NCBI GenBank assembly: GCA_964016885.1
Contig: OZ024747.1
Span: 65,844,001 to 65,908,000 of the forward strand
Source of the DNA: Eledone cirrhosa
Lineage: Eukaryota
Length of the DNA stretch: 64,000 nucleotides
Direction: 5' to 3'
In this document: positions 13,573 through 62,247 of the stretch, piece by piece
How positions within the stretch are numbered: position 1 is the first letter of the stretch
Layout of the letters: each line of letters begins with the position of its first letter
Position numbers and translations under genes: made by a program
Notes under the pieces: model-generated
Database searches by the model: none
Told to the model about the DNA's origin: nothing
Seen by the model: only the letters and a program-made list of their open reading frames with translations

Positions 13573-13653
13573 TATATATATATATAGATGGGATTCTACA
13601 GGACTAGAACTGTTTCATTCTTTAGAAACCATCAGGAATCTCTGAATCATCTC

Positions 13654-21305: not shown

Positions 21306-23694
21306 TATACGATATTAAACAAATGGAAACTATATTTATAAAACCATATTTATTTCATTATACATATTTCAGGGATACCATATTAAAAATATGGCATGCC
21401 TTCGTCAGATAAAATACAATATATAAACAGTTTTATAAATAATTTTGATGTACCATAAATATAAGCGACCATTAAGGTAGGAAGCTGGCTTGGTAGTGAA
21501 GTGTTTATAAATATTTAGTGTTAAGCACAGTTATAAAGAAAGACGGAGAAAAAGAAGAAATAGGGAGGAGGTGAAAAAAGAGAGGTAACCGAAGGCAACA
21601 GATGAATAATAATAATTCATCATACAAATTGAGAGATTTAAGAGGGAGGGAGTACGGTAATTATTTAGTTATAGTGTTAAGCACAGTTAGAGAAGAGACG
21701 AATAGAAAGAAAGAATGGAGATGAAGAGAAAACAGAGAGAGAGAGAGAGAGAGAGAGGTGGGAGGAAAAGAAAGAGGGAGAAAAAATAATAATAATTATA
21801 TAGGGGGAGGTGAAAACCAAGAGAGAAATAAGAGAGAAACATGAGAGGCAAAATCAAAACGACAGATACATAAACTTCATATATAAAGAGAGAGGAGAAG
21901 AAAGAGCTATATCTAGAGAGAGGGATGATAGAGTTACATCTTTACGTCATGTCCTATCAATTTGAATTATCAATTCATATGAACTGGGTAATATAATGTA
22001 AATATCAATATTCATGAATGAGACATAGATATATAATGTGTAAAAATAATTTTGCTCAATAATGACCATATGTTTAGTTTAAAACTCTGAGGTCAATGTA
22101 CCAAAATCTGAGATAAATCTTTAAAAAATTACCCTATTTATAAAAATACGGAGATATATAAGTATATACATACACATGCATATGCACTTTCTGAAAAAAG
22201 AAAAAGAGAAAGAGAAAGTCATGTCAAGCTCTAGTTGATAATATAGACATACACATGACTTTACGTGATCAACTCTATAATTTCTTGTTTCATAAACAAA
22301 AAAAAAAAAAATTTCCTTGTGTTATAAAAGATTTCACTATATATATATACATAAAAAATAAACGATTAATATTCATGCCCTCACACATATGATTATCGTT
22401 CATGTATATAATATTATGCATATCTGTAACATATACAGAACTATACCTACACATACATATACATATATATGTATACATAAGATATCTGCGTGGGTGTTCT
22501 AGCATCTCTATGCACACATACAGGCACATGAACAGATAAAATATACTCTGTAATCATTCCATATGCATATTAATACATATGGCCTTTGTATAGAGACAAC
22601 CAGATATCAATATATCAGCACAGAAATATCAAAACGTTAAAATATTTTCAACACACCCTAGGGTATCTCAGGCCACAAAAAAAACCCAGTATGCTTCATA
22701 TATTTACCACAGAAATCTATCCTTCCAATTTTCCAGACAATTTATTGCCAAGTCCTTTAGAAGCAATCAGAATCAAAAAGCAAATAAAAAACCAAAAATT
22801 ATTTAACAAAAATCATTTAAAGGATTTAGAAGACCATGTGGTTCTACGGATGCTCTTATATTTAGTATAGAAATTTATCTTGCGTAAAATTTATTTAATA
22901 CATTGAGAGCATCTACATTTTAGAGTAGTTTAATTACATCATTTGTTTATATTTATGAAGAAGGTTTAAAAGAAAAAGTTGAAGGAATCGAAAGATTTAT
23001 CGTCAGGTTTCATACATTAATTAAATTTCTTAATTAATTATACTACATTTAAAATTTATATTTATATTTAAACGTTGAGTTCAATCTATGTCTGCAGCAA
23101 CTGAATAAATTGCACCTTAGATTAAGGGAATTTTTGGATTTTAATATAAAGAATATCTCCTCCACACAGAGATCACATGTCTCAGATGAGGAATTAAAAG
23201 GAATCCCTCTTGAGACAATATTCCAAAACATCGAATACCCAACGTTATCACGTTTAAGTTGCCAGAGTAAGCTTGATAGTGAAGTTGAAGATTTTTTGTT
23301 TGGATCTGTGAAAGAATTATCTCTCCCCTATTTCTCTGTTTTTCTTTACATACATTTCTTCTTTTTCTCCGTCTTTCTTTATAACTGTGCTTAACACTAA
23401 ATATTTATAAACACTTCACTACCAAGCCAGCTTCCTACCTTAATGGTCGCTTATATTTATGGTACGTCAAAATTATTTATAAAACTGTTTATATATATTG
23501 TATTTTATCTGACGAAGGCATGCCATATTTTTAATATGGTATCCCTGAAATATGTATAATGAAATAAATATGGTTTTATAAATATAGTTTCCATTTGTTT
23601 AATATCGTATATCTACTCCAAAACCTTGTCGAGTGCTTTATATCAGTTATAAAATATTTACTTGTTGTAACCCAACAATTTTAAATAAAACTTT

Positions 23695-23698
<4 letters not shown>
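21306..23698 (-). mobile_element. 5'-truncated Penelope-like element with inverted pseudo-LTR (same family as 11866-13572)
   Basis: Endonuclease C-terminus at 23049-23310. About 255-bp near-perfect inverted repeat (21306-21560 vs 23355-23612), each arm with a hammerhead. (TA)n flanks. Confidence 0.88.
23501..23566 (+). ncRNA. Minimal type I hammerhead (homologues on the minus strand at about 21351-21416 and 11909-11974, on the plus strand at about 36194-36259)
   Basis: CTGACGA at 23509, CCATATT/AATATGG stem II, GAAA at 23547, TATTTTAT/ATGAAATA stem I. Confidence 0.78.
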
Positions 23699-23779
<81 letters not shown>

Positions 23780-23847: not shown

Positions 23848-23887
<40 letters not shown>

Positions 23888-24093
23888 GGTCTAAGCGGAC
23901 GTATTTTGCTCGCTCACAGCAAGTCGCTTTATTTGCCTGTTAAAATTATTTATTGTTAAATATTTCTTGTTGTGTAAGGGATATAAGCCCTTAGACTTTG
24001 CCCCGTGAAGGGGAAAGTATAATATTTGGGCCTTTTGGCCCAAATATTTGAACTTTTTTTTACATGTTAAAAAATTTACGAAGAAAAAAAAAC

Positions 24094-26017
24094 ATGGCTG
24101 AGCCACGCCCCCCAGCGATATGTCGGCTGTCGTGCGACAACGACGTAGATGTTGAGAGGAGCGCTACAGCGAAATTAACACACATTGATAACACAAACAC
24201 CACCACAAACAAGGTAAACAAAGACACCAATGATACCAATAAGAACTCTAATTTTGAAAAAAATGACAGTAACAGCGACAACGAAAATACAGATAACAAA
24301 AAAAAAATAACAAATACAACAACAATATCAACACCTCTAACATGAAAACAAATAGCGACAACACCAACAGCAACAATACCAACTGCACCGAGAACAACGG
24401 TGGCAACAAAGACAACAATGATAACAGCGACAACAAAACCCCCAACGAAAACAAGAACACTTTCGCTGCGGCAGCAGCAAAAAAGAGGCCATGCTTCAAC
24501 ATGGACCTCTCAAACAAAGATGAAAAGTTGGCCCAGGCATGGAAGCTCATCAGGCAAGAGCAAACTTGGGCCAACTTAACTGTCCCGGTAGAAGCTATTG
24601 AGGCAGTGGAGCGCAAAACGGTACATTATAGATGCATCTCAGCACAAACCAAAAGGGCACCTTTTATCCCACAAGAAGATGTCGAAGTCGCGCTGAGGTG
24701 CATCAGAGAAGACACCCAGTACATAGAGAGGGGCAGACAGTACGGCACCATTTCGGTGTTGTTCAAGTCAGAAGCCCTCGCTATGAAACACGCTATGATT
24801 CCTTGCAAAACCAGCAAGGTCATAATGTACCCCTCCCACATGGGAATCCCACCAGGACTTGACATGTGGTGGCTTCTGGCATGTGTGATTGTGGAGGGGA
24901 CGGATACAGTCCCTATAGAAGTGACCAGAACGGCCAGAGAGGACTGGTCCGGGGTTGACCTGGAGATCCTTCTCCAGATCAGGCCCGAGAATGTGAAGAC
25001 AATCCCAGACCACATCCACCTTCAGAATGGGACGGTCATTCACATTATGACCGAAGGCAAAAGGCTGCAGTGTTTTATTTGTGGGAAAAAAACCCATTTG
25101 CGAGTCTTCTGCCCTCAACTGCTGAAAGAGGCAAGGGGTCGAAAGGCTCCACTGCTGCCGACGCCGGGACGAAGACCACAACCAACACCAGCACCGGCAA
25201 AACCACCAACAACAACACCAATACAAAGACCACCACCAACATTGACCACCCAGGGGGGAAACGAGGAAAGCTGTCAAATTCTCCCTCCTCCCAAAAATAC
25301 ACACACCAATAAAACCATAAACATACATACAGACACACTTACAGACACACTTACAGACACAGACTCCTCATCTACCAGTAGTGAAAATGAAGGAAATCCA
25401 AAATCCCCCAAAATACAAAAAAGGAAACACAAAAAGAAAATAAAACTCAACAAAGCACAAAAGCACCCACAATAAAAAACGCGGACACCACCCACGCAAA
25501 CATCTCTCCAATAACACCAACATCAACACCACCATCACCATCACCAGAATCCCCCAAACGCAAACAACCGAAACAGACGCAAGAACAAATATACACACAA
25601 ACATCTGAAACCACAGACACCGCACTCACAACAAACACAGATACAACCGAAACAACACCACCAAAACCATCACCACCACAGCCACGCAAACAAATAAAAT
25701 CACACCAACAAAACATACAAAACTTCGTGCTCGTCAGGAGGGCCAACAAGGAACTGATGGCTCTCGTAGCACGAAGTGAAAATATACAAAAAGAGGGGGA
25801 CATTTTTAAATCGAGCACATTTCGCGTGCCGGAAGATTTGGTTCTGGTGCGAATGTCGCTCGACATATTCAAAGAAATACGAGACAGCTTTCCTCGGGAC
25901 GTGGGAACCCCGAACGTAAAACCCACTTCAAGACTTTTAAAGGGGTTCCCAAAAGAAACCCCACTAACTATGGCGGTCGAACAATCCGACCTTCACAAGA
26001 GCCCGGAAGGTAAGTAA
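24094..26017 (+). pseudogene. Tx1 copy A ORF1 (gag-like, zinc knuckle), frameshifted
   Basis: ORF pieces 24064-24345, 24342-25475 and 25727-26017. Asn/Thr-rich N-terminus, CFICGKKTHLRVFC (CX2CX4HX4C), Pro/Thr-rich tail and basic patch. Confidence 0.85.
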
Positions 26018-26048
26018 ACCTTTCTCGCTCTCTGTTTAACCTGCCAAC

Positions 26049-29000
26049 ATGGCCGTATTAAGAGTAGGATGTTTAAATGTTCGAGGCCTGGGATCGTCCT
26101 GGAAGCAGGGTCACCTTCTCAACGACCTCAGGTCTATAATAATGGATGTTATTTGCAGTCAGCGAGACCAGGATTTCCGAGACGCGCGCACTAGCCCACA
26201 TTTTCGACGACTATCAGATCTTTGCATCTGTTAGCCGGCCGGGAATGGGAGGCGGGGTGGAAGTGCTGTTTAGGAAAGGCCTGGGTCTCGAGGTAAGGTC
26301 GATCTTCCGGGACCCGGACGGGAAGTTGGTGGTCCTGGACGTGAACAATAATGAAGGTGGTGCCTTTAGACTGGTGGCCGTCTATGCTCCTACTGGGGCA
26401 GGACGGCCGGACTTCTTTAGACGCTTGGAAGCCTTTCTGGGTACGTCTCGTCCTTTACTGTTAGCGGGGGACTGGAACGGCATCTTAGACGCACGCTGGG
26501 ACTGTGTGGGAGTATCCGATAGGAGCGGGGGGGGGGGGGGTGTAAAAGCCTCAAGAACCTGATCAGCCAGTTCCAACTGTCTGACAGGTACCGACTAGAT
26601 TTCCCTAGTGCGCCAGTATGGACCTGGGCTAACCGCATAGGGTCATCTAGATCGTATATAGACAGGATATTCATTAGGAAAATAGACAGAAATAGTGTAG
26701 GCTGTCCACGTTTTGAAACGGTCGCCTATTCAGATCACAAGTTTGTGATCTGTATGGTCGACCTAGATAAGACGCGTAGGTTAGGACCTGGTTACTGGAA
26801 GCTAAACATGTCATTTCCGGCACGTAAGGCTTACAGGGACCAGGTCAACAATTTAGTTAAGAAAAAGTTGACAGGGGAAGTCGTCAACAATAGATGGTGG
26901 GGGGCTCTCAAAAGAGAGATTAGAGTAATGTCGATAGAGTTTAGCAAAGAAGTAGCATCAGAGAAAAATAGAAAGGAGGGGGAGTTGGTAGATAAGTTAG
27001 ACGAGGCTATTGGTAGTGGCATTGCAACTGATGTGCTAGCGGCGAGAATGGCATTAGACCATTTCTTCAATGCGAAACACGAAGATTGCATTGTCAGAGC
27101 TAAGGTGCGTGCTCTGAGAAACGAGGGAACCAAAGCTGTTCGATGGGCCCGCGTGGCAGAGGCGCAGCGTGGAAATAAAACCACGATTCGATCTTCGACG
27201 GTCCGAGACGGGTACGAGCTGAGCGATTCGGTTGTTCGGGGGAAGTGGCGGGTCAGAGATGGTGGCGGACTTCAGTCCCTACCTCGATGGCTTGCCGCAA
27301 CTCTCGACGGCTTACGCTGGGCGCTGCGAAAGGCCAATTACTTCAGCCGAGATTCAGGATGCCCTTGTCGGCTGCATGAGGCGCAAGTCACCCGGTTTGG
27401 ATGGTCTGCCCTACGAGCTTTACGTAAATATGCCAGACTTGTTCTCCAATCTCCTCGAAGCCCTCTACTGCAACTGGCAGCAAAACGGGAGTATTCCCAG
27501 TTCTGTGAGCCGGGGCGTAGCGACGCTGATAAGGAAAGACGAGAACAAGAGGGACACATTAGACAATTTCAGGCCCATAACTCTGCTCAACACAGAGTTT
27601 AAGATTTTGGCCAGGGTGTTAGCGAAGAGGTTGGCGCTTGTCGTCGGGGATTTGGTTGGGGAGGCGCAAACTTGTGCAATCTCAACCAGGTCCATACACG
27701 ACAACCTCCACCTAATGCGATACATCATAGAGAGGGTAGGGTGTAAACCTGGCTTCGGTGGGGCTCTGATCAATTTAGATAAATCGAAAGCATTCGATAG
27801 GGTCAACCATCGGTACCTGGAGGCTGTCTTCAAGGCGGCTGGCTTCGGCCCCGTCTTCAGAAGCTGGATCGCTGCAATGCACAGCGGCACCTGCTCGATG
27901 GTCAAAATTAATGGCCACCTCTCGGAACCGTTTCAGGTCTCCCGATCGGTCCGTCAAGGGTGCCCTCTCTCCTCCCTTCTGTACGTATTGATTCTCGAGC
28001 CTTTACTGCGGAAGCTGGAGCTGTTGCAGGGCATCCCGCTCGAACCGTGACGCGGAAAGGCTGTGTCGGCTTATGCGGACGACATCACCGTGATGGTGTC
28101 GGACACCTCAGAAATTGAGGTGGTCGGCAATTTATTGGAGGAATATGAAAGGTTGACGGGAGCAAAACTTAACCCGGAAAAGTCAGTAGGCTTGCAACTC
28201 GGCACCTAGAGAGGCAAGTCCATGCCGTCCAACAGCGTCGTTAGGCGCTGGACGGACGAACCGGTAAAGTTGCTAGAGGTTTGGTTCGGGCCAGACCTCC
28301 AGGTGGATAAGAATTGGGACGAGGTGACGGGCAGAGTAGTCAGTCTCACCCAGAAATGGGCTGGGATGAAGCTATCACTGAAAGGTCGGGCGGAGGTGGC
28401 GAACGCGTACATCGCGTCCGTCATCTACTACCGTCTGACTGTCGTCCCTTGCCCCCGTTCGCGCCTCTCCATCTTGGAGCGGCTCCTCTTCAAATTCTTG
28501 TGGAGGGGTCAGGTTCCGCTGGTGAGGCGGTCCATCTGCTGCCAGCACCCTCTACGTGGAGGGCTGGGCATGCCGTGGCTAATGATGCGCAAGCACGCGC
28601 TGAGGCTGCGGCATCTCCAGGTATTCTGCCTAAACGGTGAACAGGTGTGGTCGCCGTTTGTCAGACGGGCCTTTCCGCAGCTCGTTTCTTTGACTGAGTT
28701 GCAGTCCTGGGCCAAGAAGAGACCGAGACTGGGTGACTGGCATCTGGAATGTTGCCAGGCACTCACTGCCCTCTACCAGACGGGCAATGCGGTCAGTAGA
28801 ACTTCCACTCTCGAGTTCTATAGAGGATTAGTGGTGGGCAAGTGCGACGACACACTCGGAGAGGCTCTGGGAGTCAACGAAGTCGAACTAACCAGTCTGT
28901 ACCGGAGGACTTTCGAGCCGGGGACGATGGATAACTTCCAAAAATCCCTCGCTTGGCAGTGCTACTGGGGGGCACTGCCGGTTCGAGATAAACTCTACAG

Positions 29001-29442
29001 GCACGGAAGTGTTGTCAGACGGACCTGTCCGAGATGCGCGCAGAGCGACGAAACCGTTCTGCACGCACTCGTCCAGTATCCGTGCATTACTGACTTGTGG
29101 AGTTATGTTGAACAGCTGTTGTCGCGTGTAGAATGGATCCGGCTATCGGCCGAGTCCATAGTGAAGATCGACCCGCCGCATTCTTTTGGCCAGGAAGGGC
29201 AGGCAATTTTCCTCTGTCTGGTGGCAGTAGCGAAATAGGTTGTATGGTGGACGAGGTTGAAAGGACTGAAGACAGACACTTTTCTCTTCGGCTAATCCCT
29301 CATCAACTTTTTTAAGTTTCACTTGGAAAGGAAGGTGAGGGTGGAGAGAGAAGTGCTGCCCCCCAGTACATTTGCTGAAAGGTGGGTGAATGTGGCGAGA
29401 ATGGCCCGTGTGAGTGGGCCTACTCTGGTCATGCGGCTGTAG
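26049..29442 (+). pseudogene. Tx1 copy A ORF2 (AP endonuclease + reverse transcriptase), frameshifts and stops
   Basis: Endonuclease motifs LNVRGL, VYAP, GDWN, SDH. RT motifs PGYWKLN, KSPGLDG, FRPITLLN, KAFD, VRQGCPLS, YADD. C-terminal CPRC...ETVLHAL. Confidence 0.93.
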
Positions 29443-29714
29443 GTAGGTAAATTTGAAGAGGAGAGGGGTGCCCTTCCAGGGTGCTCTCGAAGCGTCGGGT
29501 CGTTCAGGACTGGTGGGGTACCTGAGCGAACACTAGGTGGTCATCCCCCTATTGGGGAATTTTTTCTTGTAATTTTCTTGTTACTTTATTTTTACTTTGT
29601 TATTGTTACTTTGTTTATTCATATTGTTTACTCGATTTTTCTGTAAAACCCCACTGTCCCAGTCTTTTGTTTTGTCCCCTATATGTCGGCCCCTGTGGCC
29701 AATAAATGAAATCC

Positions 29715-29746
<32 letters not shown>

Positions 29747-29923
29747 GGCAAAGGTTTGTTATTTTCAGTTGTTCAAAATTGCCATTCATGGAAAATTTTA
29801 TTGTTAACTGTATATAAGTGCACATACATTGTTATCTGAAAAGGACACCCAAAAAGATTGGGGCCTTGAGCCCAAAATTTAAACTTTTATAATTATCAAA
29901 CAAAAATTTTTCTTTGAAACATC

Positions 29924-31859
29924 ATGGCTGACTCAGAGTCACTCCTTTCTCACAAACTAACACCTCACACCGACACCACCATTATAAATATTACTACGTT
30001 TGCCAACACAAAAAAAATATAAGCAGTAGCAATATTTTAAATTTGTCTCAGGCAGACATTCATTTCCCGCCATTACCAATGACTGCAGGTGTTAAAGCCC
30101 CCCCCCCCACCACCACCACCGCGACAACAGAAACAAAATAAAAAAATAAAAAAATAAATTAACTCGTGATATCGAAATGAATTCAAACAAAATGAACTCT
30201 TCCACACCGAACACCACTGACGCCACCACCACCACAACTGAAACTAAAATTAATAATAAAAAAAATAACGATAACAACAACAGCAACAATGACATTAAGA
30301 AAATCACCCTGAGTTTTGCCAGAGTAGCAAAACAGTGCGAAGCATTTAGGTAACTCAGGAGGAATTAGAAGAAGCCAAAACATTGGTAAAGAAAGATGGG
30401 TACAGGGTCAGCCTCACCCCCCACCTAATAAAATGGAGCATCGGCACCTATGCACCGTGTCTTATCGAACAATTAATATAAAATCGCGCCGAGTGGAACG
30501 GGCATCCGAGTCCCAAATCCAAAAAGCTTTGGGACATGTGTGGGCAAAAAACCCCCACATCAGACGTGGGCAGAAGTATGGAACCGTGGACGTGTTCTTT
30601 GAAACACCACAGGAGGATAGAGAACACTCCATGGCCCCATTAAGAAGTGACGACTTCACACTCGTCCCAAGCTATTGTGGCCAGAGACTGGTAAAGATCA
30701 GAGTCACCCACGTTCCACCGGCCATCGAAATTCCCTGGCTAATAGCTGCCGTCCTCGCCGGCATCGAAGCCAACACCAAGATAATCGAAATAGCGAAAGA
30801 AAAGCAGGAGAACTGGTCCGGATCTGGGATGGAGCTCCTGATCCAAGCGGACCAAAAAAGCATTGAGGAGATCCCAGAGGTAATAGACCTCACTGACGGC
30901 AGCCACCTCACCGTAATTGTCGAGGACAGAAGGCCTAGGTGTGTCGTCTGTGGTGAAGGAACCCACCTAAGGGCCATCTGCCCTCAGGCTAAAAGGTTGA
31001 GGCCACCTCTCCTACCCACCCCAGTGACTCAACCATCAACACCACCAGCAGCAGAGATGGCAGCAACAACTGTAGCAGCAACAACAGAAGCAACTGTAAC
31101 AGCAACAACCCCAGCAACAGTAGCAAAACCACCACCACCACCACCCAACGCGCCAGAACTAGCACCAGCGCCTACACCATCCACCACGCCACAAACAAAA
31201 CTAACGCCAGTGGAGGATTTTCCACTCCCCGGCCTATCACAACCACAACTGGAGACAGATTGTGACGACGAGGAGTGGGAAACGGTATCAGGAAAAAAGA
31301 AAAAAAGAAACCAAAAGAGAAAAAATTCTCTTCCTTCCTCTCCGAAAACAAAATACAGAGGGAAACAAATAAACTATCAAACAAAAAAGTTAGGACAGAT
31401 ATGCCACCATCCACACCAGCATCACCAACCCCATCACCCCAAACACCAACACCATCACCATCATTAACCCCAATACCACCATCACCTACACCACAAAAGT
31501 CACCAAAAAGCGAAACAGATAGAAACCCACAACAAACACAAACAAAACAAAGCAACCAAAACAATACACACTACACAGCATTAAATTTGAACAACCAATT
31601 ATTACACTACATCCAACACAACACCAGCATCACAGAAAAAAACTACACAACAACCCAAAAGTTCACACGACCTCCACACATACAAATCACTCGCATCACA
31701 CAGAAAACGTACATGACACTAAAACAAAAAATCGCCAAAGACATCGGAGACTTCCGACAAGCACTCTCTAGGAGAATTTATAAGGACATCCTTCCTGAGG
31801 AGGCCACAAGCAGTGAAAAGGATGGAGAAACCGTCCTTCCTCTACGAGAAGTAAGGTAA
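29924..31859 (+). pseudogene. Tx1 copy B ORF1, frameshifted
   Basis: ORF pieces 30433-31467 and 31275-31859. CVVCGEGTHLRAIC knuckle, RGQKYGTV motif matching RGRQYGTI in A, and WETVSGKKKKR. Confidence 0.85.
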
Positions 31860-31893
31860 GTGGTCTTTCCCATCTTTTCCACTCCATTTCAAC

Positions 31894-34800
31894 ATGATCT
31901 CACTCAGAATAGGCAGCATAAATGCGCGTGGCTTGGGGTCGTCATGGAAGCAGGGCCACCTGCTCAACGACCTCAGGTCACTAAACATAGATGTAGTGTC
32001 CATCAGCGAGACCAGAATCTCCGAAGCACGCGCCTTCGCACCGATCTTCGGCGGCTACGATGTGTACGCATCTCCCAGCCGTCCGGGATCGGGGGGGGGG
32101 GGGGGAGGAGTTGCTGTGCTTTTTCGGAGAGGTTTGGATCTCGCCATCTTCTGGAACCAGAAGGTAAGTTGGTGGTGCTGGACGTGACCAGCGGACACGG
32201 GCAAGCTTTCAGGCTAGTGGCCGTCTATGCCCCGACAGGAGCAGGGCGGCCTGATTTCTTCCGGCGTCTGGAGACCTTTCTTGGAACGTCCCGCTCTTTA
32301 GTGTTAGTGGGCGACTGGAACGGGATCTTAGATGCACGCTGGGACTGTGTGGGATAAGCGGATAGGGGAGGAGGGTGCAAGAGTCTCACCAACTTGCTCA
32401 GGCGTTTTGAACTGTCTGACAGGTACCGATTGGATTTCCCGAATGTGCCAATGTGGACTTGGACAAATCGCATAGGGTCATCCAGATCATATCTAGATAG
32501 AGTATTTTGTAGGGAAATAGATAGGTATAGCATAGGCTGTCCACAATTCAAGATAGTCAGCTACACGGACCATAAATTCGTGATCTGTGTGCTTGACTTA
32601 GATAGGCTTCAAAGACGAGAACCCGGCTACTGGAAGCTAAACGCGTCCTTACCAGCGCGCAAGGCCTACAGAGACCGGATTAGCGAACTAGTTAAGCGGG
32701 CGTTGACGGGGGCCATCGTCAACAACAAGTGGTGGTTTGCTCTGAAAAGAGCAATTAGAATAGAGTCCATTAGGTTTAGTAAGGCTTTAGCAATAGAGTA
32801 AAATAGAGCAGAGGGAGAATTAGTTAGAAAATTAGACGAGGCGCTTAGCAAAGGCATCGCGACCGACGTACTTGCGGTGAAATTGATCCTTGACCAATTC
32901 TTCAATGCAAAGTACGAAGGCTGCGTTGTCAGAGTTAGGGTGCGTGCTCTCAGACACGAGGGGACGAAAGCCGTTCAATGGGCCCGAGTGGCGGATGCGC
33001 GTCGTGGCAACAAAGCCACGATCCGGTCTTTGGTGGACCACGAGGGGCGCATGCTACTCGATCCCGGGAAAATGTGTGAAGCTTTTCAGCGACACTTCGC
33101 TCAACTGTTCGGGGGCAGTGGCGGGCCGGATCGAGGGATGGACTTTAGTGTCTACCTCGACGGACTGCCGCGGCTCTCGGCCACTGAGGCGGAGTGTTGC
33201 GAAAAGCCGATAACAGCCGCTGAAGTACGGGAGGCAATGACTGGCTGCACAAGGGGTAAATCGCCTGGTTTGGATGGTCTGCCCTATGAACTTTACGTAC
33301 ACATGCCAGACTTGTTCGGAGGCCTCTTGGCAAACGTCTACTGCAACTGGCAACAGAACGGGAGAATTCCCAGCTCTGTGAGCCGAGGAGCGGTGGCGCT
33401 GCTGAGAAAGGCTCCGAACAAGGGGGATAACATAGATAATTTTAGGCCCATAACTCTGCTAAACACAGAGTTCAAGATTTTGGCCAAGGTGCTAGCAAAG
33501 AGGTTGGTGCTTGTCGTTGGTGGTCTGGTGGGAGAGGCGTAGACATGCGCCATTCCCGACAGATCCATCCACGACAACCTCCACCTCATGCGATACATCG
33601 TAGAGAGGGTAGCTATAGAACCTGGCACGGGTGGGTCCTTGATCAATTTAGATCAGTCGAAAGCTTTCGATAGGGTCGACCATCGTTACCTAGCGGCCGT
33701 CCTGATGGCGGTTGGCTTTGGGCCCATCTTCAGACGCTGGATCGCTGCCATGCACAGCGACATCTGCTCTGTGGTGAGAGTGAACGGTCACCTTTCGGAA
33801 CCGTTCAACATCATGCGCTCGGTCCGCCAAGGATGTCCCCTCTCGTCCCTCTTGTACGTATTGACTCTCGAGCCATTACTGCACAAAAAGTGGAGACGTT
33901 GAGGGGGGTCCCGCGCGAACTAGGATGCGGAAGATCCGTGTCAGCATATGCGGACTATGTCACCGTAGTGGTGTCGAACGCCAAACACATCGAAGCGATC
34001 GGCACTACACTAAGAGAATACGAAGCGGTGACAGGAGCAATGATCAACCAGGAAAAGTCAGTGGGCCTGCAGCTCGGCACCTGGAGAGGCAGGTCCATGC
34101 CGTCCAACAGCGTCGTCGGGCGCTGGACGGACGGACCAGTTATATTGCTAGGGGTCTGCTTCGGTCCGTACCTCCAGACGGACAAAAACTGGGACGAAGT
34201 GACGAGCAGGGTGGCTTCTCTCACCCAGAAATGGGCCGAGAGGAAGCTATCCCTGAAAGGTCGAGCGGAGGTGGCTAACGCGTACATCGCGTCCGTCATC
34301 TACTACCGCCTGACCGTCGTACCTTGTCCTAAGCTCCGCCTGACTGCGCTGGAGCGTTTGCTCTCTCGCTTTTTGTGGAAGGGACGCTCTCCGATGGTCA
34401 GGCGGTCCATCTGCTGTCAACACCCGCAACGTGGAGGGCTGGGCATGCCGTGGCTGATGATGCGCAGACACGCGCTCAGGCTACATCTCCACCTGTTCCT
34501 CGACGGTGATCAGGTGTGGTCGCCGTTTGCTAGACACGTCTTTCCCAGCTCGTCTCCTTGACGGAGCTGCAGTCCTGGGTCAAGCGAAGACCGAGAGGGA
34601 GCGCTTGGAGACTGGAATGTCTTCAGGCGCTCACAGCCCCCGACCAATCGGGCAATGTGATCGGTGGAAACTCCAACTTGGCGTTCTATAGGGGATTAGT
34701 GGAGGGGAAGAGCGACAACGTACTTGGAGAAACTCTAGGCGTCGACGAAAATCAACTAGCCAATCTCTTCGGAAGGACTTTCGGGCCGGGGCCTATGGAC

Positions 34801-35290
34801 AACTTCCAGAAATCCCTGGCCTGGCAGTGCTACCGAGGAGCTTTGCCAGTTCGGGATAAACTCTATAGGCATGGAGGTGCCGTCAGCCGGGCATGTCCGA
34901 GATGCGCGCAGAGCGACGAAACCGTCCTGCACGCACTCGTCCAGTGTCCGAGCATTGCTGACTTGTGGGTTTATGTCGAACACCTGCTGTCACGTGTAGG
35001 ACGGATCCAGCTATCAGCTGAGTCCATCGTGAGTAATGCCCCGCCCTCTTCCTTTAGCCGGGAAGGGCAGGCAGTTTTATCAGTCTGGTGGCCATGGCGA
35101 AAGAGATAGTATGGTGGACACGTTTGAAAGGACTGAAGACGAGCACTTACCTCTTCGGTGATGCCCTGATTAACCTTTTCAAATTTCATTTCATAAGGAA
35201 AATCAGGGTTTCCAGCATTTTGTTGAAAGATGGGTGAGAGAAGCAAGTATGGCCCGAGTGAATGGGCCTACTCTGAGTATGTGTCTGTAA
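31894..35290 (+). pseudogene. Tx1 copy B ORF2 (APE + RT), disrupted
   Basis: INARGL, VYAP, GDWN, TDH, KSPGLDG, FRPITLLN, DQSKAFD, VRQGCPLS, YADY (mutated YADD), CPRC. Several stops and frameshifts. Confidence 0.93.
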
Positions 35291-35859
35291 ATTAAAGGTG
35301 GAAAACTGGGAGAGGGCACTTGCCCTGGTGGTCAGGGTCACTGTGGCTTTTTAATGGGCTTTCTCCACAAATGTCCCTCGGAAGTCTCCCCCCTATTGGG
35401 GAATTTTTCATTGTTATTTTTTATTACACCCTCTGTTTTATTTTACACGCAGAAATGCCCATTTGAACCGTCCTGTATTGTCCTGTACTGTCCTTAATGT
35501 CTACTTTATGTAAACCCTTGTGGTTAATAAAGAAAACATTATTATTATTATTATTATTATTTTTATTATTTTTATTTTTATTTTAAATTTTGCCGTCTTG
35601 TATCGCTGTCAACTTAATAATATTTTTTATATTTTTTTTATTTTCTTAATCCTTATTTTTTATTTGCTTATTTGTATATGACGGCCTACTATGATTATTT
35701 ATCCTTATTTGTGTGTGTGTGCATATGTATCCTTTTATATGTGAGTACGTATGCATGTGTGTATATATGTGTGTATGTATGTGTGTGTGTATGTATGTGT
35801 ATGCGTATATATATATGTATATTTATATATATATGTATGTGTGTGCATGTATATATATG

Positions 35860-36406
<547 letters not shown>

Positions 36407-36792
36407 GTAATAATAAAATTGAAGACTAAAATCCAAAGAGGGCTCGATAAGGAAAATATATATCAAATATATAAGAACCGAAGAGCAAATATTTATTAAA
36501 ATAACAGATTAAAGTTTAAGCAAAGAATCGCTGCTTTCACCCTTAACGGGATCTTCTGAAACTAACAAAGTCAATCTGTAAACGCAGTACTGGATATTTC
36601 AAAAAACGTTGCAACCGTAGGAAGACAGGAAGACGTTCGCTGGCAAAGAACGGGGAAAAACGAATAATACGTCATTAATAGGAGCGGTGAAAAACAATTA
36701 CGCGCAAAGACAGAACCACGTTTATGGTATAAAAGAGGTCGTAGACTAATGTTCTCTAAGTGGTGCATAGAGACGTTCTCTGGCAATGAACG

Positions 36793-36934
<142 letters not shown>

Positions 36935-37282
36935 AAAATGGAGCGGGAACAAAACAGAGAGGCAGTATTATTATATATATATATATATATATGTGTGTGG
37001 GTGTGTTTATGTATGGATATATATATATATATATATATGTATATGTGTGTGTATATGTGTCTCTGTGTATATATATGTGTATATATGCGTGTATATATGC
37101 ATGTATATATGTATATATGTGTGTATATGTGAGTGTGTGCGTGTGTGTGTGTGTACGTGTGTGTTGTTATATATTCTTATTTATTATCCCCCCCCCCCCC
37201 TTTTTTTCCCCCTCCAGCCTCACTTTCATATCTGTTATATTTTTGTTTTTCATATCCACTGTCAATAAAGACACCAGGATTT

Positions 37283-37342
37283 TTTCATTCTGATGAATGT
37301 AAGCAATTTTGGTTGCTTTCAAGAAACCACTGGTAAATGAAA
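37283..37342 (+). ncRNA. Type I hammerhead
   Basis: TTTCATT/AATGAAA stem I, CTGATGA at 37290, AAGCAA/TTGCTT stem II, GAAA at 37323, ACCA-C-TGGT stem III, GUA triplet. Confidence 0.72.
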
Positions 37343-37793
37343 TAATTATCTTATGTTGTTTATTACATAACTAATAAGCTCTGTAGCTTACATAGAGTAT
37401 TCTTTTTTCCTGTACCTTTCCGACGGAATTAATTCATTCACACATATATATTTATATATATATTTATATATATATATATATACACACATACTGCTCTGTA
37501 TTTTCACTCAATTATTATGAAAAAAAGAATATTTCTTTGCAAAATTACATGTGTGACACTTGAACTAGGAATGGTGGGTGTGTATGGTATGTGAACTGAG
37601 GTTTGAGGATGCCGTGAGTGTAGCAAAAGTTTTGATAGTGAAGTTGGTTAAATTTTTATCGAAAATAATTGGTCTCTGGATTATTACTATGCAGTGTAGT
37701 AACCAGAGTGATTTGATCATTTGTATTTGGTTGGATGTCTGTCTGTCTATCAGTGCACACATGCATCATGTGTCTACAGACACACATTCACGT

Positions 37794-37841
<48 letters not shown>

Positions 37842-37878
37842 TATATATATATATACATATAAACATATATGCACGTAT

Positions 37879-38530
37879 GTACGAGAGGTGTCAGAAAAGA
37901 AACAGGACTAGAGTGCCCCTCCCCTCCCGCGAAAAAAAGAAAATTCAAATCCAAACTACAAATTATAAGTTTTTCCCCTTCAAATTAACCCCGCTCGAGT
38001 CTCATGCACATTCCCATCCTTCTCCACCATACCTACATGCACTCCTAGAAAATTTCTCCCGGGATCTCCGCAGCTCTGTTGTCCCGGCTCTCTTGGTGGC
38101 TTTCACGCCTGGAAAACGGGTAGTACTCGAAGATCTATGATTCATCTCCGGTGATGACTCTTCCCAGCAAGTCTGGTTCGGTTTCAAGATACCCGAGGAA
38201 TTTGCTGACACATCTACATGCGTCACCCCTTTTAATAATCGTTCAGCATCTTCAGCACCATCTTCTTGCAGATCTTCTGCATGTCCAAAATTTCGGTGAT
38301 ACGGTTGATGTCGGTGATATTCTTCCAAACGCTAATGCGATCCCAGCCGACGATTGCCAGGCACCACCTGCCTCACGCGCTCAACGTTGGCGTCAGTCAT
38401 ACTCGTTGAAGCCCTTCCCCTCCTGGGTTTGTCTTCCACTCTTTTCGCCACTCGGAAACCCATGAGCGCGAAATTGTCTTATCGTTCACTTGCTGCAGTA
38501 TTTCTCATTTTTTCAATAATGTCATCTTTA
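37879..38530 (-). mobile_element. Internally deleted mariner relic
   Basis: Minus-strand fragments read GRASTS.TDANVERV, MQKICKKMVLK, LETEPDLLGRVITGDES..FEYYP. TACGAGAGGTGTC terminus at 37879. Confidence 0.7.
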
Positions 38531-38575
38531 TATATTTTCCATGCTATTTCCAACTTCACCCCCTCTCTCTCTCTC

Positions 38576-38642
<67 letters not shown>

Positions 38643-40071
38643 GATATGTATGTATGTGTGTGTGTGTGTGTGTATAAGATTGCTTTATATTCAAACTATT
38701 CAGAATAACTTCCTAATTCTGACAGAAACTGCGGCTAGAAGCGTAGTTTACTGGTTAGAATTCTTTGCCTGGAAGAGAAACATTCACAGTTCGTCTCTCC
38801 GTAGCGGCTGTTGGCCATTTTTGTGTTGGATTATTATTTATTATTAATACAATGTATTGGATTAATTTACCCTTTTGATTACACCTTGGATGAAAGCCGG
38901 AACGAATACCGATGTTCTATAGACTCTGTCAAATCAATGCTTAAACTCTTTAATATTTTCAAAGAACTGTTTGTATGTTTCAAGATTAGTGGTGTTATCG
39001 GTGAGATTTATGGCAGATTAGGAGTATTATAGGGTCGTCAAGTATGAAATTTGTAGAAATTCGTTCTTTTTCTACAAATTTCTACAAATTTCATACTTGA
39101 CAACCCAATAAATACAATGAAGTAATTTTATTTAACAGACAAATGATATATTGAATAATGAGATGAGCTAGGAAAAATATAAACAAACGTCTTCAAGATA
39201 GAAAGACGACCACTCTGTAGTTATGTTTATGCATTAAAGAGCCAAATCAACGAAGAGATAAGCGCAATTGAATATTTATACGGACATGAAAGATCGTTTA
39301 ATTAGAATGCTAATAAATGTAAATCGTAATACTAATTTATGGAATTACAGAGTAAAGTTGTACAGGTTCGATAATTCAATAATTATAAGTCTATTTAATT
39401 ATATATATAAGATAGAACAGTGTGCGCATTTCATGAATCTAACTTTTAATGTTGATGTTACCACGCTGTGAAAATAATGGAGTGTGGGGTTAAATACTTA
39501 ACAATTCCTGAGTTGATAGAAAAACAAGAAACTATGAATATGTAATTCCGATATTTTTATATCTTTAACAAGCGATGATTATTCCTATAAATCTTTATAC
39601 AGACAACTATTACTATAGTAACACTATACATATATATCATACATAATATAGAAAATACCTGAGTATTCAACAGACACGTATACTATTAAAATAATTCCAA
39701 TTTTCTCCCCAAACTACCAAAACACATCTATTTGTATATGTGCTACAATTTATGTACATGTTACGTAGATCCAGATAGGAGAGATAGATATAGATATAAA
39801 GAGGGGTAGAGTTTGGTGGTAATTGATATAAATTTCTATTTATTTGCCAACAGGGCATCAAAGATTGGGACAAATACAAAGGGGGGAGTTTACATACATT
39901 TAAAAAGACGTGTAAAAAACATATAACAAATTAAATTTAACAATCGATGTCCTCAATAGGGAGGGGCGTTGACATGGGTCGCACACACCCCCGAGAAAAT
40001 GTGCAACCCTCCTCTTCAGGAGCACAAAGAGCGGGTGCTTCCTTCCTCTTCTCATTCTTCTCCTCTCTCAC

Positions 40072-43000
40072 CTACAGGCTGATATAGAGAGAAGGCCCAT
40101 TTACTCGGGCCATTCTTGCTACTTTCACCCACCTTTCATAAAACTTGCTGGGGTAGAGCACCTCTCTCTCCATTCTGATCCTTCTTCTAAAGTGGTACTT
40201 GAAAAAAAAGACCAGTTGTTTGCCGGAGAGAAAGGTGTCTGACCTCAGCCCTTTCAACCTTGTCCACCATACAACTTCTTTCGCCATAGCTATCACACAG
40301 AGGAAAACCGCCTCTCCTTCGTTTTTGAAAGGGGAGGCGGTTTGATCGTGACAATGTACTCGGTGGTCAACCGGATTGGTCCCACCCGCGACAGTAGTCG
40401 TTCCACATAGCCCCACAGGTCAGCAACGCCCGGGCAGTGTACGAATGCGTGTGCGACGGTTTCCTCGTCACGCACGCATCTCGGACAGATCTTCTTCGAG
40501 GGGTCCCTACCCGGGCGCCCGTGTCTGTAGAGCTTGTCCCGAACGGGTAGAGCTCCTCGGTAACATTGCCAAGCCAGGGACTTTTGGAAGTTGTCCATCG
40601 TTCCCGGGCCAAACGTCCTACCGAACAGACTGGCCAGCTCATCTTCCTCCATTCCCAGAGCTTCTCCGAGAGCGTCGTCGCACTTACTGCGCACCAACCC
40701 TCTATAGAATGTTGAGGTTGAGTCTCCACTGATTGCCGGATCCGCTTGCCAGAGAGCCGTGAGCGCCTGGGCACATTCAATGTGCCAGTCGCCCACTTTT
40801 CTCGGTCTTTGCTTGACCCAGGATTGCAGCTCGGTGAGTGAGACGAGTCTCGGAAAGGCTCGCCTCACAAACAGGGCCCACACCGGCTGACCGGTGAGGA
40901 ATACCTGGAGGTGCCGTAGCCTTAATGCGTGTCTACGCATCGTCAGCCACGGCAACCCCAGCCCTCCGTTCGAAGGGTGTTGACAGCAGATGGATCTTCT
41001 CATCAAAGGAGCCCGCTTCTTCCAAAGAAATCGGAAGAGCGCGCGCTCCATTTTGGCGAGTGTTTTCTCTGAGCAAGGCACGACGTTCAAGCGGTAGTAG
41101 ATGACGGACGCTATATAAGCGTTCGCCACCTCCGCTCGACCTTTCAGGGATAGTTTGCACTCGGCCCACTTCTGGGCGAGTGCAAACACCTTGCCCGTTA
41201 CCTCGTCCCAGTTTTTCTCCACCTGGAGGTCCGGTTCGAACCAGACCCCGAGCAGCTTCACCGGTACCCCCGTCCAGAGTCCGACGACACCGTCGGAGGG
41301 CATCGTTTTGCCCATCCACGTCCCGAGTTGCAAACCGACGGACTTGTCCCGGTTCAGCTTGGCTCCTGTGAACCTTTCATATTCCTCCAGTAAGGTGCCG
41401 ATCTGCCCGATTTCCGAGGCGCACGACACCATTACTATCACGTCATCGGCGTAGGCCGACACCGCTTTCCGCAATCCCGGTTCCAAGGGGATGCCTTGCA
41501 ATAGCTCCAGCTTCCGCAGTAGTGGCTCGAGAGCCAGCACATACAGGAGGGTGGAGAGAGGGCATCCCTGTCGGATGGATCGCGTGATTTGGAACGGCTC
41601 CGAGAGGTAGCCGTTCATCTTGACCCTCGAGCAGGTGTTGCTGCTGTGCATTGCAGCAATCCAGCCCCTGAAAACGGGTCCGAAGCCTGCCGGCGCGAGC
41701 ACCGCATCCAGGTACCGATGGTCAACACTATCGAACGCCTTAGATTGATCCAAGTTGATCAGGGCCCCACCAAAGCCGGGTTCGTTCCCTACCCTCTCTA
41801 CGATGTATCGCATGAGGTGGAGGTTGTCGTGTATGGATTGCGCATGTCTGCGCTTCTCCCACCAGGTTCCTGACGACAAGCGCCAACCTCTTTGCTAACA
41901 TCATGGCCAAAATCTTTAACTCTGTGTTTAGCAGAGTTATGGGCCTGAAGTTATCTATGTCATTCTCCTTGTTCTCGTCCTTCCTCACCAGTGTGACTAC
42001 GCCCTTGGTCACAGAACTGGGAATTCTCCCGTTCTGTTGCCAGTTGCAGTAGACCGCCTCGAGGAGACCGGAGAACAAGCCCGGCATCGCTACATAAAGT
42101 TCGTATGGTAGACCATCGAGACCCGGAGATTTGCGTTTGCCGCATTGGCTCAGCGCTTCCCCTATTTCAGACCGTCGAGGTATGTACCGAAATCCATGGC
42201 TCCACCCAGCCCGCCGCCCCTCCCGAACAGTCGTGCAAAGCGCCGTTGAAAGGCCGCGCTCATCCGCTCAGGTTCAAGGATCATGCGTCCATCCTGGTCC
42301 TTCAAAGACCGAATCATGGACTTGTTTCCACTTTTTGCCTCTATCACTCGGGCCCAGCTAACAGCTTTGGCTCCCTCGTTACCCAGAGCACGTATCTTAC
42401 TCCTGACAACGCAGCCCTCGTGCTTCGCATCAAAGAACTGGTCTAGGGCCATTCTTGACGCCAGCACGCCGGCCACGTTGCCACTCCTAATCGCCTCTTC
42501 TACTCTATTTGTTAATTCCCTTTCAGTTCTATTCCTATCTGATGCTAATTCCCGACTAAAACCTATCGATTCTATTCTAATTTCTCTCTTGAGAGAGCCC
42601 CACCACCCGCTGTTGACAATTTCCCCCGTCAAACGCTGCTTAACTAGTGTGCTAATCCGCTTACTGTAAGCTTTGTTTGTTGGTAAAGACAAGTTTAGCT
42701 TCCAGTAACCGGGTCCCTGTCTATGAGTTCTATCAAGGTTGACCACTCCGGTCACCAACTTGTGATCCGAATAGTCAACCATGAACATTCGTGGACAGCT
42801 TAATATGTCCCTATCCTTATTTCTAACTAGGAACCTATCTAGGTACGACCTAGATGTTCCGCTGATATTAGTCCACGACCACAGTGGCACAGTCGGAAAA
42901 TCTAGTCGATATCTATCGGCCAGATCAAATCGGCCGATTAATCGTTTGAGGCTGTTACACCCCCCTCTATCGGGACATGCCCCTATATAGTCCCAACGTG

Positions 43001-43442
43001 CATCCAGGATACCATTCCAGTCCCCCACTAAAAGCAAGGAGCGAGACGTTCTCAGGAAATTCTCCAGGCGTCGGAAAAAGTCCGGTCGCGGTGTCCCAGA
43101 TGAGGCATACACTGCCACCAGCCTGAAAGCTCCACCTTCACCACTGCCGACGTCTAAAACCACCAGTCGACCCTCCGGGTCCAGGTGTACCTTCTGTGTG
43201 GCAAGACCCAGGTATTTTCGCAGCAGAACGACAACCCCACCCCCACCCCTCGGCTGACAGAGAGATGCGTAGATCTCAAAGTCGTCGAAGATGGGGGCCA
43301 GTTGGCGCTCGCTGCTGATCCTGGACTCGCAAATAACCATTACATCCACTCTGTGCGACCTGAGGTCATTTAAGAGTTTGCCCTGTTTCCAGGACATCTC
43401 CAGGCCGCGTGCATTCACGCATCCAACTCTTATATTGGCCAT
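40072..43442 (-). pseudogene. Tx1 copy C ORF2 (APE + RT), few frameshifts
   Basis: ORF pieces 42162-43442 (VNARGL, GDWN, SDH, PGYWKLN), 41740-42087, 40293-41879 (DQSKAFD, IRQGCPLS, YADD, CPRC..HAFVHC) and 40072-40416. Confidence 0.93.
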
Positions 43443-43484
43443 GTTGGTGCTGAAGAGTTAAAAAGGAAGAGGAAAGGGAATTAC

Positions 43485-45307
43485 TTACCTCTTCGTCTCC
43501 TGGGGACCAGGCTGCACAATTTCCATGGGGGTGTTGTAAGGGTTGTTTGGTGGGGTGGTGGTTTGTGGTGGGGTGAGGAAATCAGTGTGTGGTGGGATTA
43601 GGGTGTTTGGTGGGGTGTGGGTGTCTGGTGTGGGGGTGGGGAAACATCTCAATAGGACGTGGTTAAGTGGTTTGGTGCAGTTGGTCCCCACATGCATTGG
43701 ATGGTTCTTTTTCAAAGTTACATAGGTTTCCGTTGGGACCCTAATCATCATTAGGTGCGGTTTGTTCTCTGCGTAGGTGAAAGTGATCTCTTCGGTTTCC
43801 ACCGAAGGGTTATTTTCTATTGCTTTCATCAACGTTTTATTGTTCTTGTTAATGTATGTATAGAGTTTTTGTTGTGTTGTGTTTGTTTTTGTTTGTTGTT
43901 CTTGTGCGTGTTTGCGTTTTGTAGTATGTGTTATGTTTTGGGGAGGGGTGGGTTTTTTTGTTTGTGATGTTTGTTCTGTTTGTGCTGGTGATTGTGTGTT
44001 TGTAGCATTTTTGTTAATGTGGTGCCTTTTTTTTTCCTTTTCCCCTGTTGAAAGGGTTCTCCCTCGTCGTCACTGGGTGACGTTGATACGGAGTCCTCTT
44101 CCGTGTTGTTGGGGAGGGGTATATTTTGGGGTTTTGTGTGTGGTTGCTTTTGTATTTGTTTTAGGTGGGGAGGGGTTGGGGGAACAGTGTTTTGTGTTGT
44201 TATTTTTCCGTGTTGTTGTGGTTGTTGTTGTTGTTGTTGTGGTGGTTGTGGTGGTTGTGGTGGTGGTGGTGGTGGTGGTTGTGTTGTTGTGTTCGGGGTT
44301 GGCAGAAGAGCCTTTTTTTTTGACTCGTTAATTGAGGACAGGCAGCCCTCAGGTGACCCCTGCTTAAGAAGTGGTAACATGACGGCCGCCTTCCCTCCAC
44401 TGAAATGTTTATATAAGTTAGCCCTCCAGAGGCACGCGTTGTGGGATATTCGCTATTCGTTCTGGGCTAATTTGCACCAGAACTTCTACGCTGGTCCCAC
44501 CAAATACACCTTCGGAGGACTTTCCTATTGAAATTATCTTGTTTTCATCAAAGTCAATGATTCCACATAGTATCCACCAAATATTTACATTGATACTCAT
44601 TATTTTTATTCTTTGTGTCCTTTTCCCCCTGTATGTGGGGAAAAAGGTGAAGCGGGGGGACACAATGGGTGATACCGAGTACTTTTGTGTTGTTGACTGT
44701 ACATTAGCACCGAAATGCTACCAAACAGTTTACCTTTTTGTATGAAGGTTAAGTCCTTCATTGCATCTTTTAGAACCAGCTCAATTTCATTTTGTGATAA
44801 TTGAGCTGGTTTTCTTGTTTCGTTCGATATTGTCCTGAAAACCACAATTTTCAGGACAGCCTCTCTACGTAATTCCTGTGGAGAATTGATGCTAAAAGCA
44901 CCGTTTTCGCCAAACGTAGCGAATTGTTTTGCGTCTTGTAATAGTTGTTTAGCATTTGTTATGTCTATTGGCGTGTATAGTTCGTTTTTCTTTACAGTCT
45001 GTGGGAATGTTGGTCTGGTGTTGTTGTCTTTTTTGTTGCTGCTGTTGTTGTCACTGTTGGTAATATTGTTCATGTTTTCCTTGGTGTTGCTATTGTTGCA
45101 GTTGTTGGTTGTGGTGTTATTGTCATTGTTCTTGTTGTTGGTGCTGGTATTATTTACCGAGTTTGGTTTCGTGGTTTCAATATTTTCAACGTTTTTCGAT
45201 AATGCGAGGGGGGAAGGCTGCAAGCTTTGTACTCCTACATTCCCTCCACCACTTTTCTTAGTGGGCGTGGCACTCACGACAGTGTGCGAGGTGGAAATGG
45301 CATCCAT
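43485..45307 (-). pseudogene. Tx1 copy C ORF1, frameshifted
   Basis: Asn-rich N-terminus, KGKLFGSISV homologous to A and B, degenerate knuckle EGRRPSCYH..RGHLRAAC, Pro/Gln-rich tail. Confidence 0.8.

Positions 45308-62151: not shown

Positions 62152-62246
<95 letters not shown>
62152..62246. repeat. (CTAT)n microsatellite
   Basis: Direct reading. Confidence 0.97.

Positions 62247-62247
<1 letters not shown>

What the first reader, a model, noticed from the sequence alone, without database searches (positions are those of the whole stretch)
26005..43490. Splice donor AG|GTAAGT conserved at the ORF1 stop of three divergent Tx1 families, with acceptors giving in-frame ORF1-ORF2 fusion
Seen: ORF1 3' ends are unalignable, yet all read AG|GTAAGT, then an AG-free pyrimidine tract, then CAAC-ATG of ORF2 (A donor 26010, B 31856, C 43488 on minus). 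In B, splicing to the first AG (CAG 31905-31907, 52-nt intron) gives AG|A ATA GGC, in frame with ORF2. In C, the first CAG (43452-43450, 39 nt, after TTTAAC) gives AG|C ACC AAC ATG, also in frame. In A the first AG (26061-26062) lies at the same ORF2 codon as in B, but the annotated ORF1 frame would need the next TAG (26065-26067) or a frameshift. Known: L1-clade ORF2 is generally made by termination-reinitiation from unspliced RNA. Inference: a retained mini-intron controlling ORF2 or fusion expression, a donor for an ORF1-only mRNA, or a U1 site that suppresses premature polyadenylation. The introns would be very short, so splicing is unproven.
Basis: partly seen in the sequence, partly recalled or inferred. 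Interest (0 to 1): 0.78.

Follow-up and report, generated by a model that had tools for sequence, protein, structure and literature searches.

The report
Conserved splice donor in octopod LINEs
A large family of jumping genes in a likely octopod genome keeps a splice-donor-like signal exactly where its first gene ends; it likely serves to cut out the whole second gene and make a message for the first protein alone, which would be unusual for this class, but splicing is untested because no RNA data were available.

Summary
The motif is real and wider than reported. In 100 position-ordered genomic copies of this L1-group LINE clade (9,240 pattern matches), 92 carry GTRRGT at the ORF1 end, against 1, 7 and 0 in control windows. 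Across 16 subfamilies it varies only as a 5' splice site does (GTAAGT, GTGAGT, GTAGGT, GTAATT), in all three codon phases, once with no stop codon there.

The mini-intron fusion is not supported. The first YAG is in frame in 8 of 16 subfamilies, out of frame in 5 and absent in 3. Introns would be 28-58 nt, ORF2 keeps its own ATG, and no intron-less copy was found among about 6,000 searchable copies.

A better partner is the ORF2 stop codon itself: TAG in 14 of 16 subfamilies, TAG|G in 13, followed by a purine-rich run. The two subfamilies that lost it carry a strong CAG acceptor in the 3' UTR. Splicing would remove all of ORF2 and give an ORF1-only mRNA, like the short gag mRNA of Ty1/copia (0.4). 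The main rival is U1 binding without splicing (0.27). No RNA evidence exists for any splice.

The parts
24094..26017 (+). Element A ORF1 (frameshifted in this copy; ends GAA GGT AAG TAA, donor in phase 1)
   Evidence: start matches the intact relative L258
26007..26015 (+). Element A 5' splice-site motif AAG|GTAAGT
26016..26048 (+). A pyrimidine-rich spacer (70% C+T) ending CAAC
26049..29442 (+). A ORF2 (APE endonuclease, RT, zf-RVT; broken by frameshifts); the proposed intron is 26010-29442
29440..29443 (+). A ORF2 stop TAG|G, candidate 3' splice site; a splice would end ORF1 two codons later
   Evidence: use as an acceptor is inferred
29701..29706 (+). A polyadenylation signal AATAAA
29924..31859 (+). 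Element B ORF1 (likely start; frameshifted; ends AGG TAA, donor in phase 2)
31853..31861 (+). Element B 5' splice-site motif AAG|GTAAGT
31894..35290 (+). B ORF2 (broken); stop is TAA, so no acceptor here
35400..35453 (+). B 3' UTR U-rich tract ending in CAG|A (35450-35453), candidate replacement acceptor
   Evidence: use is inferred
35526..35531 (+). B polyadenylation signal AATAAA
43485..45307 (-). Element C ORF1 (likely start 45307; frameshifted; ends AGG TAA, donor in phase 2)
43483..43491 (-). Element C 5' splice-site motif GAG|GTAAGT
40072..43442 (-). C ORF2 (broken); the proposed intron is 43488-40072
40071..40074 (-). C ORF2 stop TAG|G followed by a purine-rich run, candidate 3' splice site; a splice would restore the same Arg-stop end of ORF1
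   Evidence: use is inferred
39839..39844 (-). C polyadenylation signal AATAAA

Best explanation
These LINEs keep a 5' splice-site sequence at the end of ORF1, which likely pairs with an acceptor at or just after the ORF2 stop codon, so that a fraction of transcripts would lose all of ORF2 (about 3.4-3.6 kb) and become a roughly 2.4-kb ORF1-only mRNA. Shown: the donor motif, its phases, the TAG|G at the ORF2 stop, the single terminal AATAAA and the conserved ORF2 ATG. Inferred: U1 recognition, with the pyrimidine tract acting as a donor-side enhancer rather than an acceptor tract; the splice itself; and that the unspliced RNA makes ORF2p by reinitiation at its own ATG and is the template that is copied.
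For: Donor in 92 of 100 copies. G-1, G+1, T+2 and T+6 are kept in 16 of 16 subfamilies and G+5 in 15 of 16, while only 44 of 177 four-fold ORF2 columns are invariant across 10 representatives. Phases 0, 1 and 2 all occur, and J has no stop at the motif. Phase freedom suits a product in which ORF1 merely has to end. The ORF2 stop is TAG in 14 of 16 subfamilies and TAG|G in 13; it has the most pyrimidine-rich upstream of 48 conserved YAG columns and a purine-rich run after it. B and B3, which changed it to TAA, carry U-tract-CAG|A in the 3' UTR in all 11 B/B3 copies whose tract could be read, whereas 3 of 3 readable copies of sister B2 (TAG kept) have an AG-free tract. After the splice ORF1 stops within 2 codons in 9 of 14 TAG subfamilies. 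Precedent in LTR elements: PMC8892269, passages.
Against: No RNA evidence. No retrocopy of the long-spliced RNA in about 650 A-type, 3,100 B-type and 2,500 C/E copies (denominators estimated), although such RNA keeps the 3' end; C2, C3, F, G, J, B2 and H were not tested for it. The pyrimidine rank is a near tie (0.672 against 0.667) and the site was picked by eye before scoring. Stop-phase matching fails in C2, C3, F, J and H (28-44 extra codons; none within 100 in the one H copy), about 5 of 14 would match by chance, and subfamilies are not independent. Synonymous conservation at the ORF2 end is unremarkable (rank 15-19 of 114 windows). A and A3 also have AGs in the 3' UTR tract, and the B shift is a single event. 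In C the first AG after the tract lies 7 nt upstream of the TAG.
Confidence: 0.4

Rival explanations
1. U1 snRNP binds the lone donor without splicing, and likely protects the A-rich ORF1 region from premature polyadenylation or helps transcription of the full-length RNA.
For: The motif behaves like a U1 site. No spliced copy of any kind was found. ORF1 regions are 30-40% A and 11 of 13 elements have AATAAA or ATTAAA within 600 nt upstream of the donor. U1 suppresses a poly(A) site without splicing in foamy viruses (PMC3694450, abstract and outline). Unspliced intron mutants still protect from HUSH (PMC8770142, passages).
Against: No poly(A) signal is conserved in position upstream, and ORF2 holds only 0-2 unconserved AATAAA. 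It does not explain why the donor always lies just before the ORF1 stop. In the HUSH paper a 5' splice-site deletion protected equally well, so that effect does not need a donor.
Confidence: 0.27
2. One reading: a 28-66 nt mini-intron is removed and fuses ORF1 to ORF2.
For: The first YAG is in frame in all three window elements and in 8 of 16 subfamilies; some in-frame AG at 45 nt or more exists in 13 of 16. C-type spacers end in TTAAC-TTTTCAG, which looks like a branch point and acceptor. J, in the C lineage, has both a phase-1 donor and a phase-1 TAG.
Against: First YAG out of frame in 5 and absent in 3 of 16; F has no in-frame AG within 80 nt. The conserved Arg-Val/Ile codons supply AGs in phases 2 and 1 automatically. 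[quoted passage not shown] The phase-1 splice would delete the first six or so ORF2 residues, whose hydrophobic pattern is conserved. No fused-length close homologue appeared.
Confidence: 0.1
3. The motif is kept for a reason unrelated to splicing, such as a termination-reinitiation context or a protein-binding site, or is partly passive inheritance.
For: In phase-2 subfamilies the variants are exactly Arg followed by TAA, TGA or TAG, and B3 changed AGG to the synonymous CGG. Lineages still share 55-57% of four-fold sites. In human L1 a donor is conserved because it overlaps a RUNX3 site (PMC5860796, section 10). A pyrimidine spacer with a purine at -3 of the ATG suits reinitiation (PMC5972666, passages).
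Against: The motif survives three phases and the loss of the stop in J; +5G and +6T lie outside the reading frame in phase-2 subfamilies; variation is confined to the positions that U1 tolerates (pairing register recalled). Five invariant positions at the observed neutral rate would have a probability near 0.001 (rough, positions chosen after the fact).
Confidence: 0.2

Closest known systems
Ty1/copia short gag mRNA (Arabidopsis EVD shGAG; Drosophila copia spliced gag RNA, recalled)
   Same: One transcription unit gives an unspliced genomic RNA and a spliced RNA devoted to the structural protein (PMC8892269, passages).
   Different: Those are LTR elements with one gag-pol frame, and EVD uses splicing-coupled premature polyadenylation. 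Here the element is a bicistronic LINE, the intron would be all of ORF2 and the normal 3' end would be used. The splice is shown there and only inferred here.
Mammalian L1 (bicistronic, ORF2 by termination-reinitiation; SpIREs)
   Same: APE-RT ORF2 most like human L1 ORF2p; short inter-ORF spacer; own ORF2 ATG.
   Different: The L1 donors described in PMC5860796 (abstract, section 10) lie in the 5' UTR and splicing there is deleterious. No donor at the ORF1 stop turned up in my searches.
Retroviral major splice donor (foamy virus; HIV-1 recalled)
   Same: A strong donor kept in an RNA that must stay unspliced to be copied, with a U1-dependent role apart from splicing (PMC3694450, abstract).
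   Different: There it is near the 5' end beside a defined LTR poly(A) site; here it is 2 kb in, with no conserved poly(A) site next to it.
Other non-LTR or PLE elements with introns (TART antisense, Tad, Penelope, Athena)
   Same: Introns in transcripts of retroelements that lack LTRs (PMC1636488, passages).
   Different: TART introns are antisense and non-coding. The Tad paper itself was not read, so a closer parallel there is not excluded.

Membership tests
L1 group of non-LTR retrotransposons | ORF2 with N-terminal APE endonuclease, RT and C-terminal zinc-binding domain | tested here: met
   PF03372, PF00078 and PF13966 in intact 1139- and 1146-aa ORF2s
L1 group of non-LTR retrotransposons | ORF2 closer to L1 than to R2 | tested here: met
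   Human L1 ORF2p E 2e-56, R2 E 3e-22; only solved structures were compared
L1 group of non-LTR retrotransposons | Separate ORF1, 3' polyadenylation signal and simple-repeat tail, no LTRs | tested here: met
Tx1 clade | RT phylogeny with named Tx1 references | not testable with these tools
No named Tx1 sequence was returned.
Tx1 clade | CCHC zinc knuckle in ORF1 (feature recalled) | tested here: inconclusive
   zf-CCHC E 0.005, below the curated cut-off, in L252 ORF1; none in the truncated L258 frame
Spliceosomal intron (long, ORF2-spanning) | Consensus 5' splice site | tested here: met
Spliceosomal intron (long, ORF2-spanning) | Conserved YAG acceptor with pyrimidine tract and branch point | tested here: inconclusive
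   TAG|G in 13 of 16, tract modest, no clear branch point seen, absent in B and B3
Spliceosomal intron (long, ORF2-spanning) | Excision from RNA | not testable with these tools
   No RNA run was available to lay on the sequence
Mini-intron giving ORF1-ORF2 fusion | Frame-preserving acceptor across subfamilies | tested here: not met
   First YAG in frame in 8 of 16

The most novel reading that the evidence does not exclude
This LINE clade is built as a two-exon gene whose intron is the whole of ORF2: donor at the ORF1 stop, acceptor at the ORF2 stop. Regulated intron retention, not only inefficient reinitiation, would set the ORF1p to ORF2p ratio, a copia-like subgenomic strategy in a non-LTR element.
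Probability: 0.4. Interest if true: 0.75.

Novelty: new variant of a known kind. Interest (0 to 1): 0.55.

Why it matters
LINEs are described as intronless, with ORF2 made by reinitiation from one unspliced RNA. A 5' splice site kept through three lineages and every codon phase suggests that this clade uses the splicing machinery in its life cycle, either to make an ORF1-only message or to recruit U1. The clade has over 9,000 junction-bearing copies and young intact members, so one RNA-seq data set from gonad or embryo would decide it. It also matters for annotation, since each full-length insertion brings a strong donor into host introns.

Tried and rejected
RNA: no RNA holder listed. Runs X1-X3 have no recorded kind and look like genomic sequencing; laid on C, 15 of 128 joints were shown and none was at the donor; laid on the young A2 element, none of 9 joints was at the donor. 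Contigs show presence, not absence, so neither counts as evidence.

The junction could therefore not be read outside this genome. Two searches with outgroup proteins returned only lineages A and B.

Spliced-looking copies: 14 C-type copies continuing with CC proved to be subfamily J. Four deletions starting near the donor (L352, L359, L365, L375) do not end in AG, and L359 and L375 have clear microhomology.

Ideas dropped: readthrough or frameshift fusion (ORF2 frame offset is 0, +1 and +2 in different subfamilies); compensation between donor phase and the stop after the ORF2 TAG (looked striking, not borne out); a second donor at the ORF2 stop (not conserved). The C3 5' row is wrong and was redone. 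A genome-wide count of donor plus ORF2 start was not obtained; 100 copies were read instead. The supplement of PMC13282606 was listed but not read; bioRxiv supplements were closed. Three look-ups of earlier findings returned nothing.

Full report
Setting. The window lies in a 3.0-Gb genome. The closest named proteins are from Argonauta hians, at 56-67% identity, so the host is likely an octopod. It holds three full-length but broken LINEs, A and B on the plus strand and C on the minus strand. Intact relatives encode an ORF2 of 1139-1146 aa with APE endonuclease, RT and zf-RVT domains, closest among solved structures to human L1 ORF2p. Tx1 membership could not be tested.

The observation. Every coordinate checks. 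Thirty near copies per element keep the exact motif in 26, 28 and 30 cases and fix the ORF1 frame as phase 1 in A and phase 2 in B and C. A degenerate pattern for the ORF2 start matched 9,240 places. I read the first 100 in chromosome order: 92 have GTRRGT 45-85 nt upstream of the anchor, against 1, 7 and 0 in three control windows; the 8 misses are five point changes, two small deletions and one GTAATT variant. These 100 come from one chromosome arm and include tandem neighbours.

How far it is conserved. I sorted copies by eye into 16 subfamilies in three well-supported lineages (H rests on one copy). ORF2 DNA is 70-77% identical between lineages and four-fold sites 55-57%. The donor reads GTAAGT in 10 subfamilies, GTGAGT in 3, GTAGGT in 2 and GTAATT in 1. 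It is in phase 2 in 9, phase 1 in 6 and phase 0 in 1. In J, ORF1 reads through it and overlaps ORF2, so no stop codon explains it there. Only 44 of 177 four-fold columns are invariant across 10 representatives. This pattern is what selection for U1 pairing would leave (pairing register recalled). The ORF1 ends are remotely homologous, so this is one inherited site, not three inventions.

The mini-intron model. It works on paper for A (TAG, 58 nt), B (CAG, 52 nt) and C (CAG, 39 nt). Across 16 subfamilies the first YAG is in frame in 8, out of frame in 5, including the youngest intact family A2, and absent within 80 nt in 3. Some in-frame AG at 45 nt or more exists in 13 of 16, but the conserved Arg-Val/Ile codons supply both phases anyway. 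Several spacers would give introns of 28-39 nt, below the usual animal minimum of 50-90 nt (PMC13644364, passages). ORF2 keeps its ATG in all subfamilies, with frame offsets of 0, +1 and +2. A fused mRNA would encode the RT and should leave copies. Six patterns asked for ORF1 ends not followed by the spacer. They returned 23, 2, 6, 0, 18 and 10 places, all read, and none is a GT-AG deletion.

A different partner. The ORF2 stop is TAG in 14 of 16 subfamilies and TAG|G in 13, followed by a purine-rich run of the GAAGAA enhancer type (PMC10901741, passages). Of 48 YAG columns conserved in at least 8 of 10 representatives between donor and 3' end, it has the most pyrimidine-rich upstream, narrowly (0.672 against 0.667). 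A splice here would end ORF1 within two codons in 9 of 14 subfamilies and regenerate the Arg-stop end in C, E and G. B and B3 have TAA instead and carry a U-rich tract ending CAG|A in the 3' UTR (11 of 11 readable copies, one more unreadable), while sister B2 keeps TAG and has an AG-free tract (3 of 3 readable). Against this: the site was picked by eye; C2, C3, F, J and H would gain 28 or more codons; about 5 of 14 matches are expected by chance and subfamilies are related; synonymous conservation at the ORF2 end is ordinary; A and A3 also have 3' UTR AGs; and no long-spliced retrocopy exists in A, A2, B, C or E. The last point weighs less here than for the fusion, because this RNA would lack RT and need it in trans (cis preference recalled).

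Mechanism. Most likely (0.4): unspliced RNA is the template and makes ORF2p by reinitiation, as proposed for L1 (PMC5972666, passages), while a spliced fraction gives ORF1p alone, as EVD does for Gag (PMC8892269, passages). The pyrimidine tract would then be a donor-side enhancer of the TIA-1 kind (recalled). Rivals: U1 binding without splicing (0.27; PMC3694450, abstract; upstream poly(A) hexamers in 11 of 13 elements), a non-splicing constraint (0.2; PMC5860796, section 10) and the mini-intron (0.1). Shown: motif, phases, stop contexts and the lack of spliced copies. Inferred: everything about RNA.

Novelty. Ten literature searches listed no paper describing a donor at the ORF1 stop of a LINE or an ORF2-spanning intron; I saw listings and abstract starts for most, and the library lacks most subscription papers and Repbase notes. 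Introns in other non-LTR transcripts are known (PMC1636488, passages), and the Tad paper was not read. PMC13282606 gave one table row on octopus L1-Tx1; PMC8770142 was read in passages; PMC2911113 gave only a reference-list hit. I rate it a new variant of a known kind, interest 0.55: the signal is solid and cheaply testable, but it is seen in one genome and no splice is demonstrated.

Noticed in passing
L258 (A2) and G000 C1 423.36-423.42 Mb, C4 157.08-157.10 Mb; L126-L131 (E): Very young subfamilies with many intact 1,150-codon ORF2 frames, often in head-to-tail arrays with a period of about 5.84 kb.
   Followed up: partly
L206 junction with L298 3' end: A copy with an A-type ORF1/ORF2 junction and a B-type 3' end, suggesting recombination or template switching between lineages, or a neighbouring B element.
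   Followed up: no
window 29381-29387 region and equivalents: A second donor-like AAG|GTGGGT about 60 nt before the ORF2 stop in 7 of 10 representatives; it coincides with conserved E-R-W-V codons.
   Followed up: no
3' UTRs, window 29443-29710, 35291-35535, 40071-39835: Short motifs shared by all lineages (CCCTATTG-G/A-G, TGTAAAC-CCCC, and a GC-rich block just before AATAAA) that may be RT recognition or 3' processing signals.
   Followed up: no
window 23850-23888, 29715-29745, 35538-35560; flanks: A- and B-lineage copies abut (TTA)n or (TTG)n repeats, C-lineage copies abut TATC/TC-rich repeats, hinting at lineage-specific microsatellite targets.
   Followed up: no
window 62133-64000: A fourth, 5'-truncated C-lineage element with RT but no ORF1 junction.
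   Followed up: partly
window 9566-10084 and 15145-15627: Fragments with weak GIY-YIG (Penelope-like) and mariner transposase matches.
   Followed up: partly
window about 13485-13575 and 23620-23700: Two similar 90-nt stretches ending before (AT)n runs, probably the end of another dispersed repeat.
   Followed up: no
L092-L094, L097, L103, L105, L117 (A3b): A one-base deletion puts ORF1 and ORF2 in one frame separated by a single TAG followed by C, a possible readthrough context in this subfamily only.
   Followed up: partly
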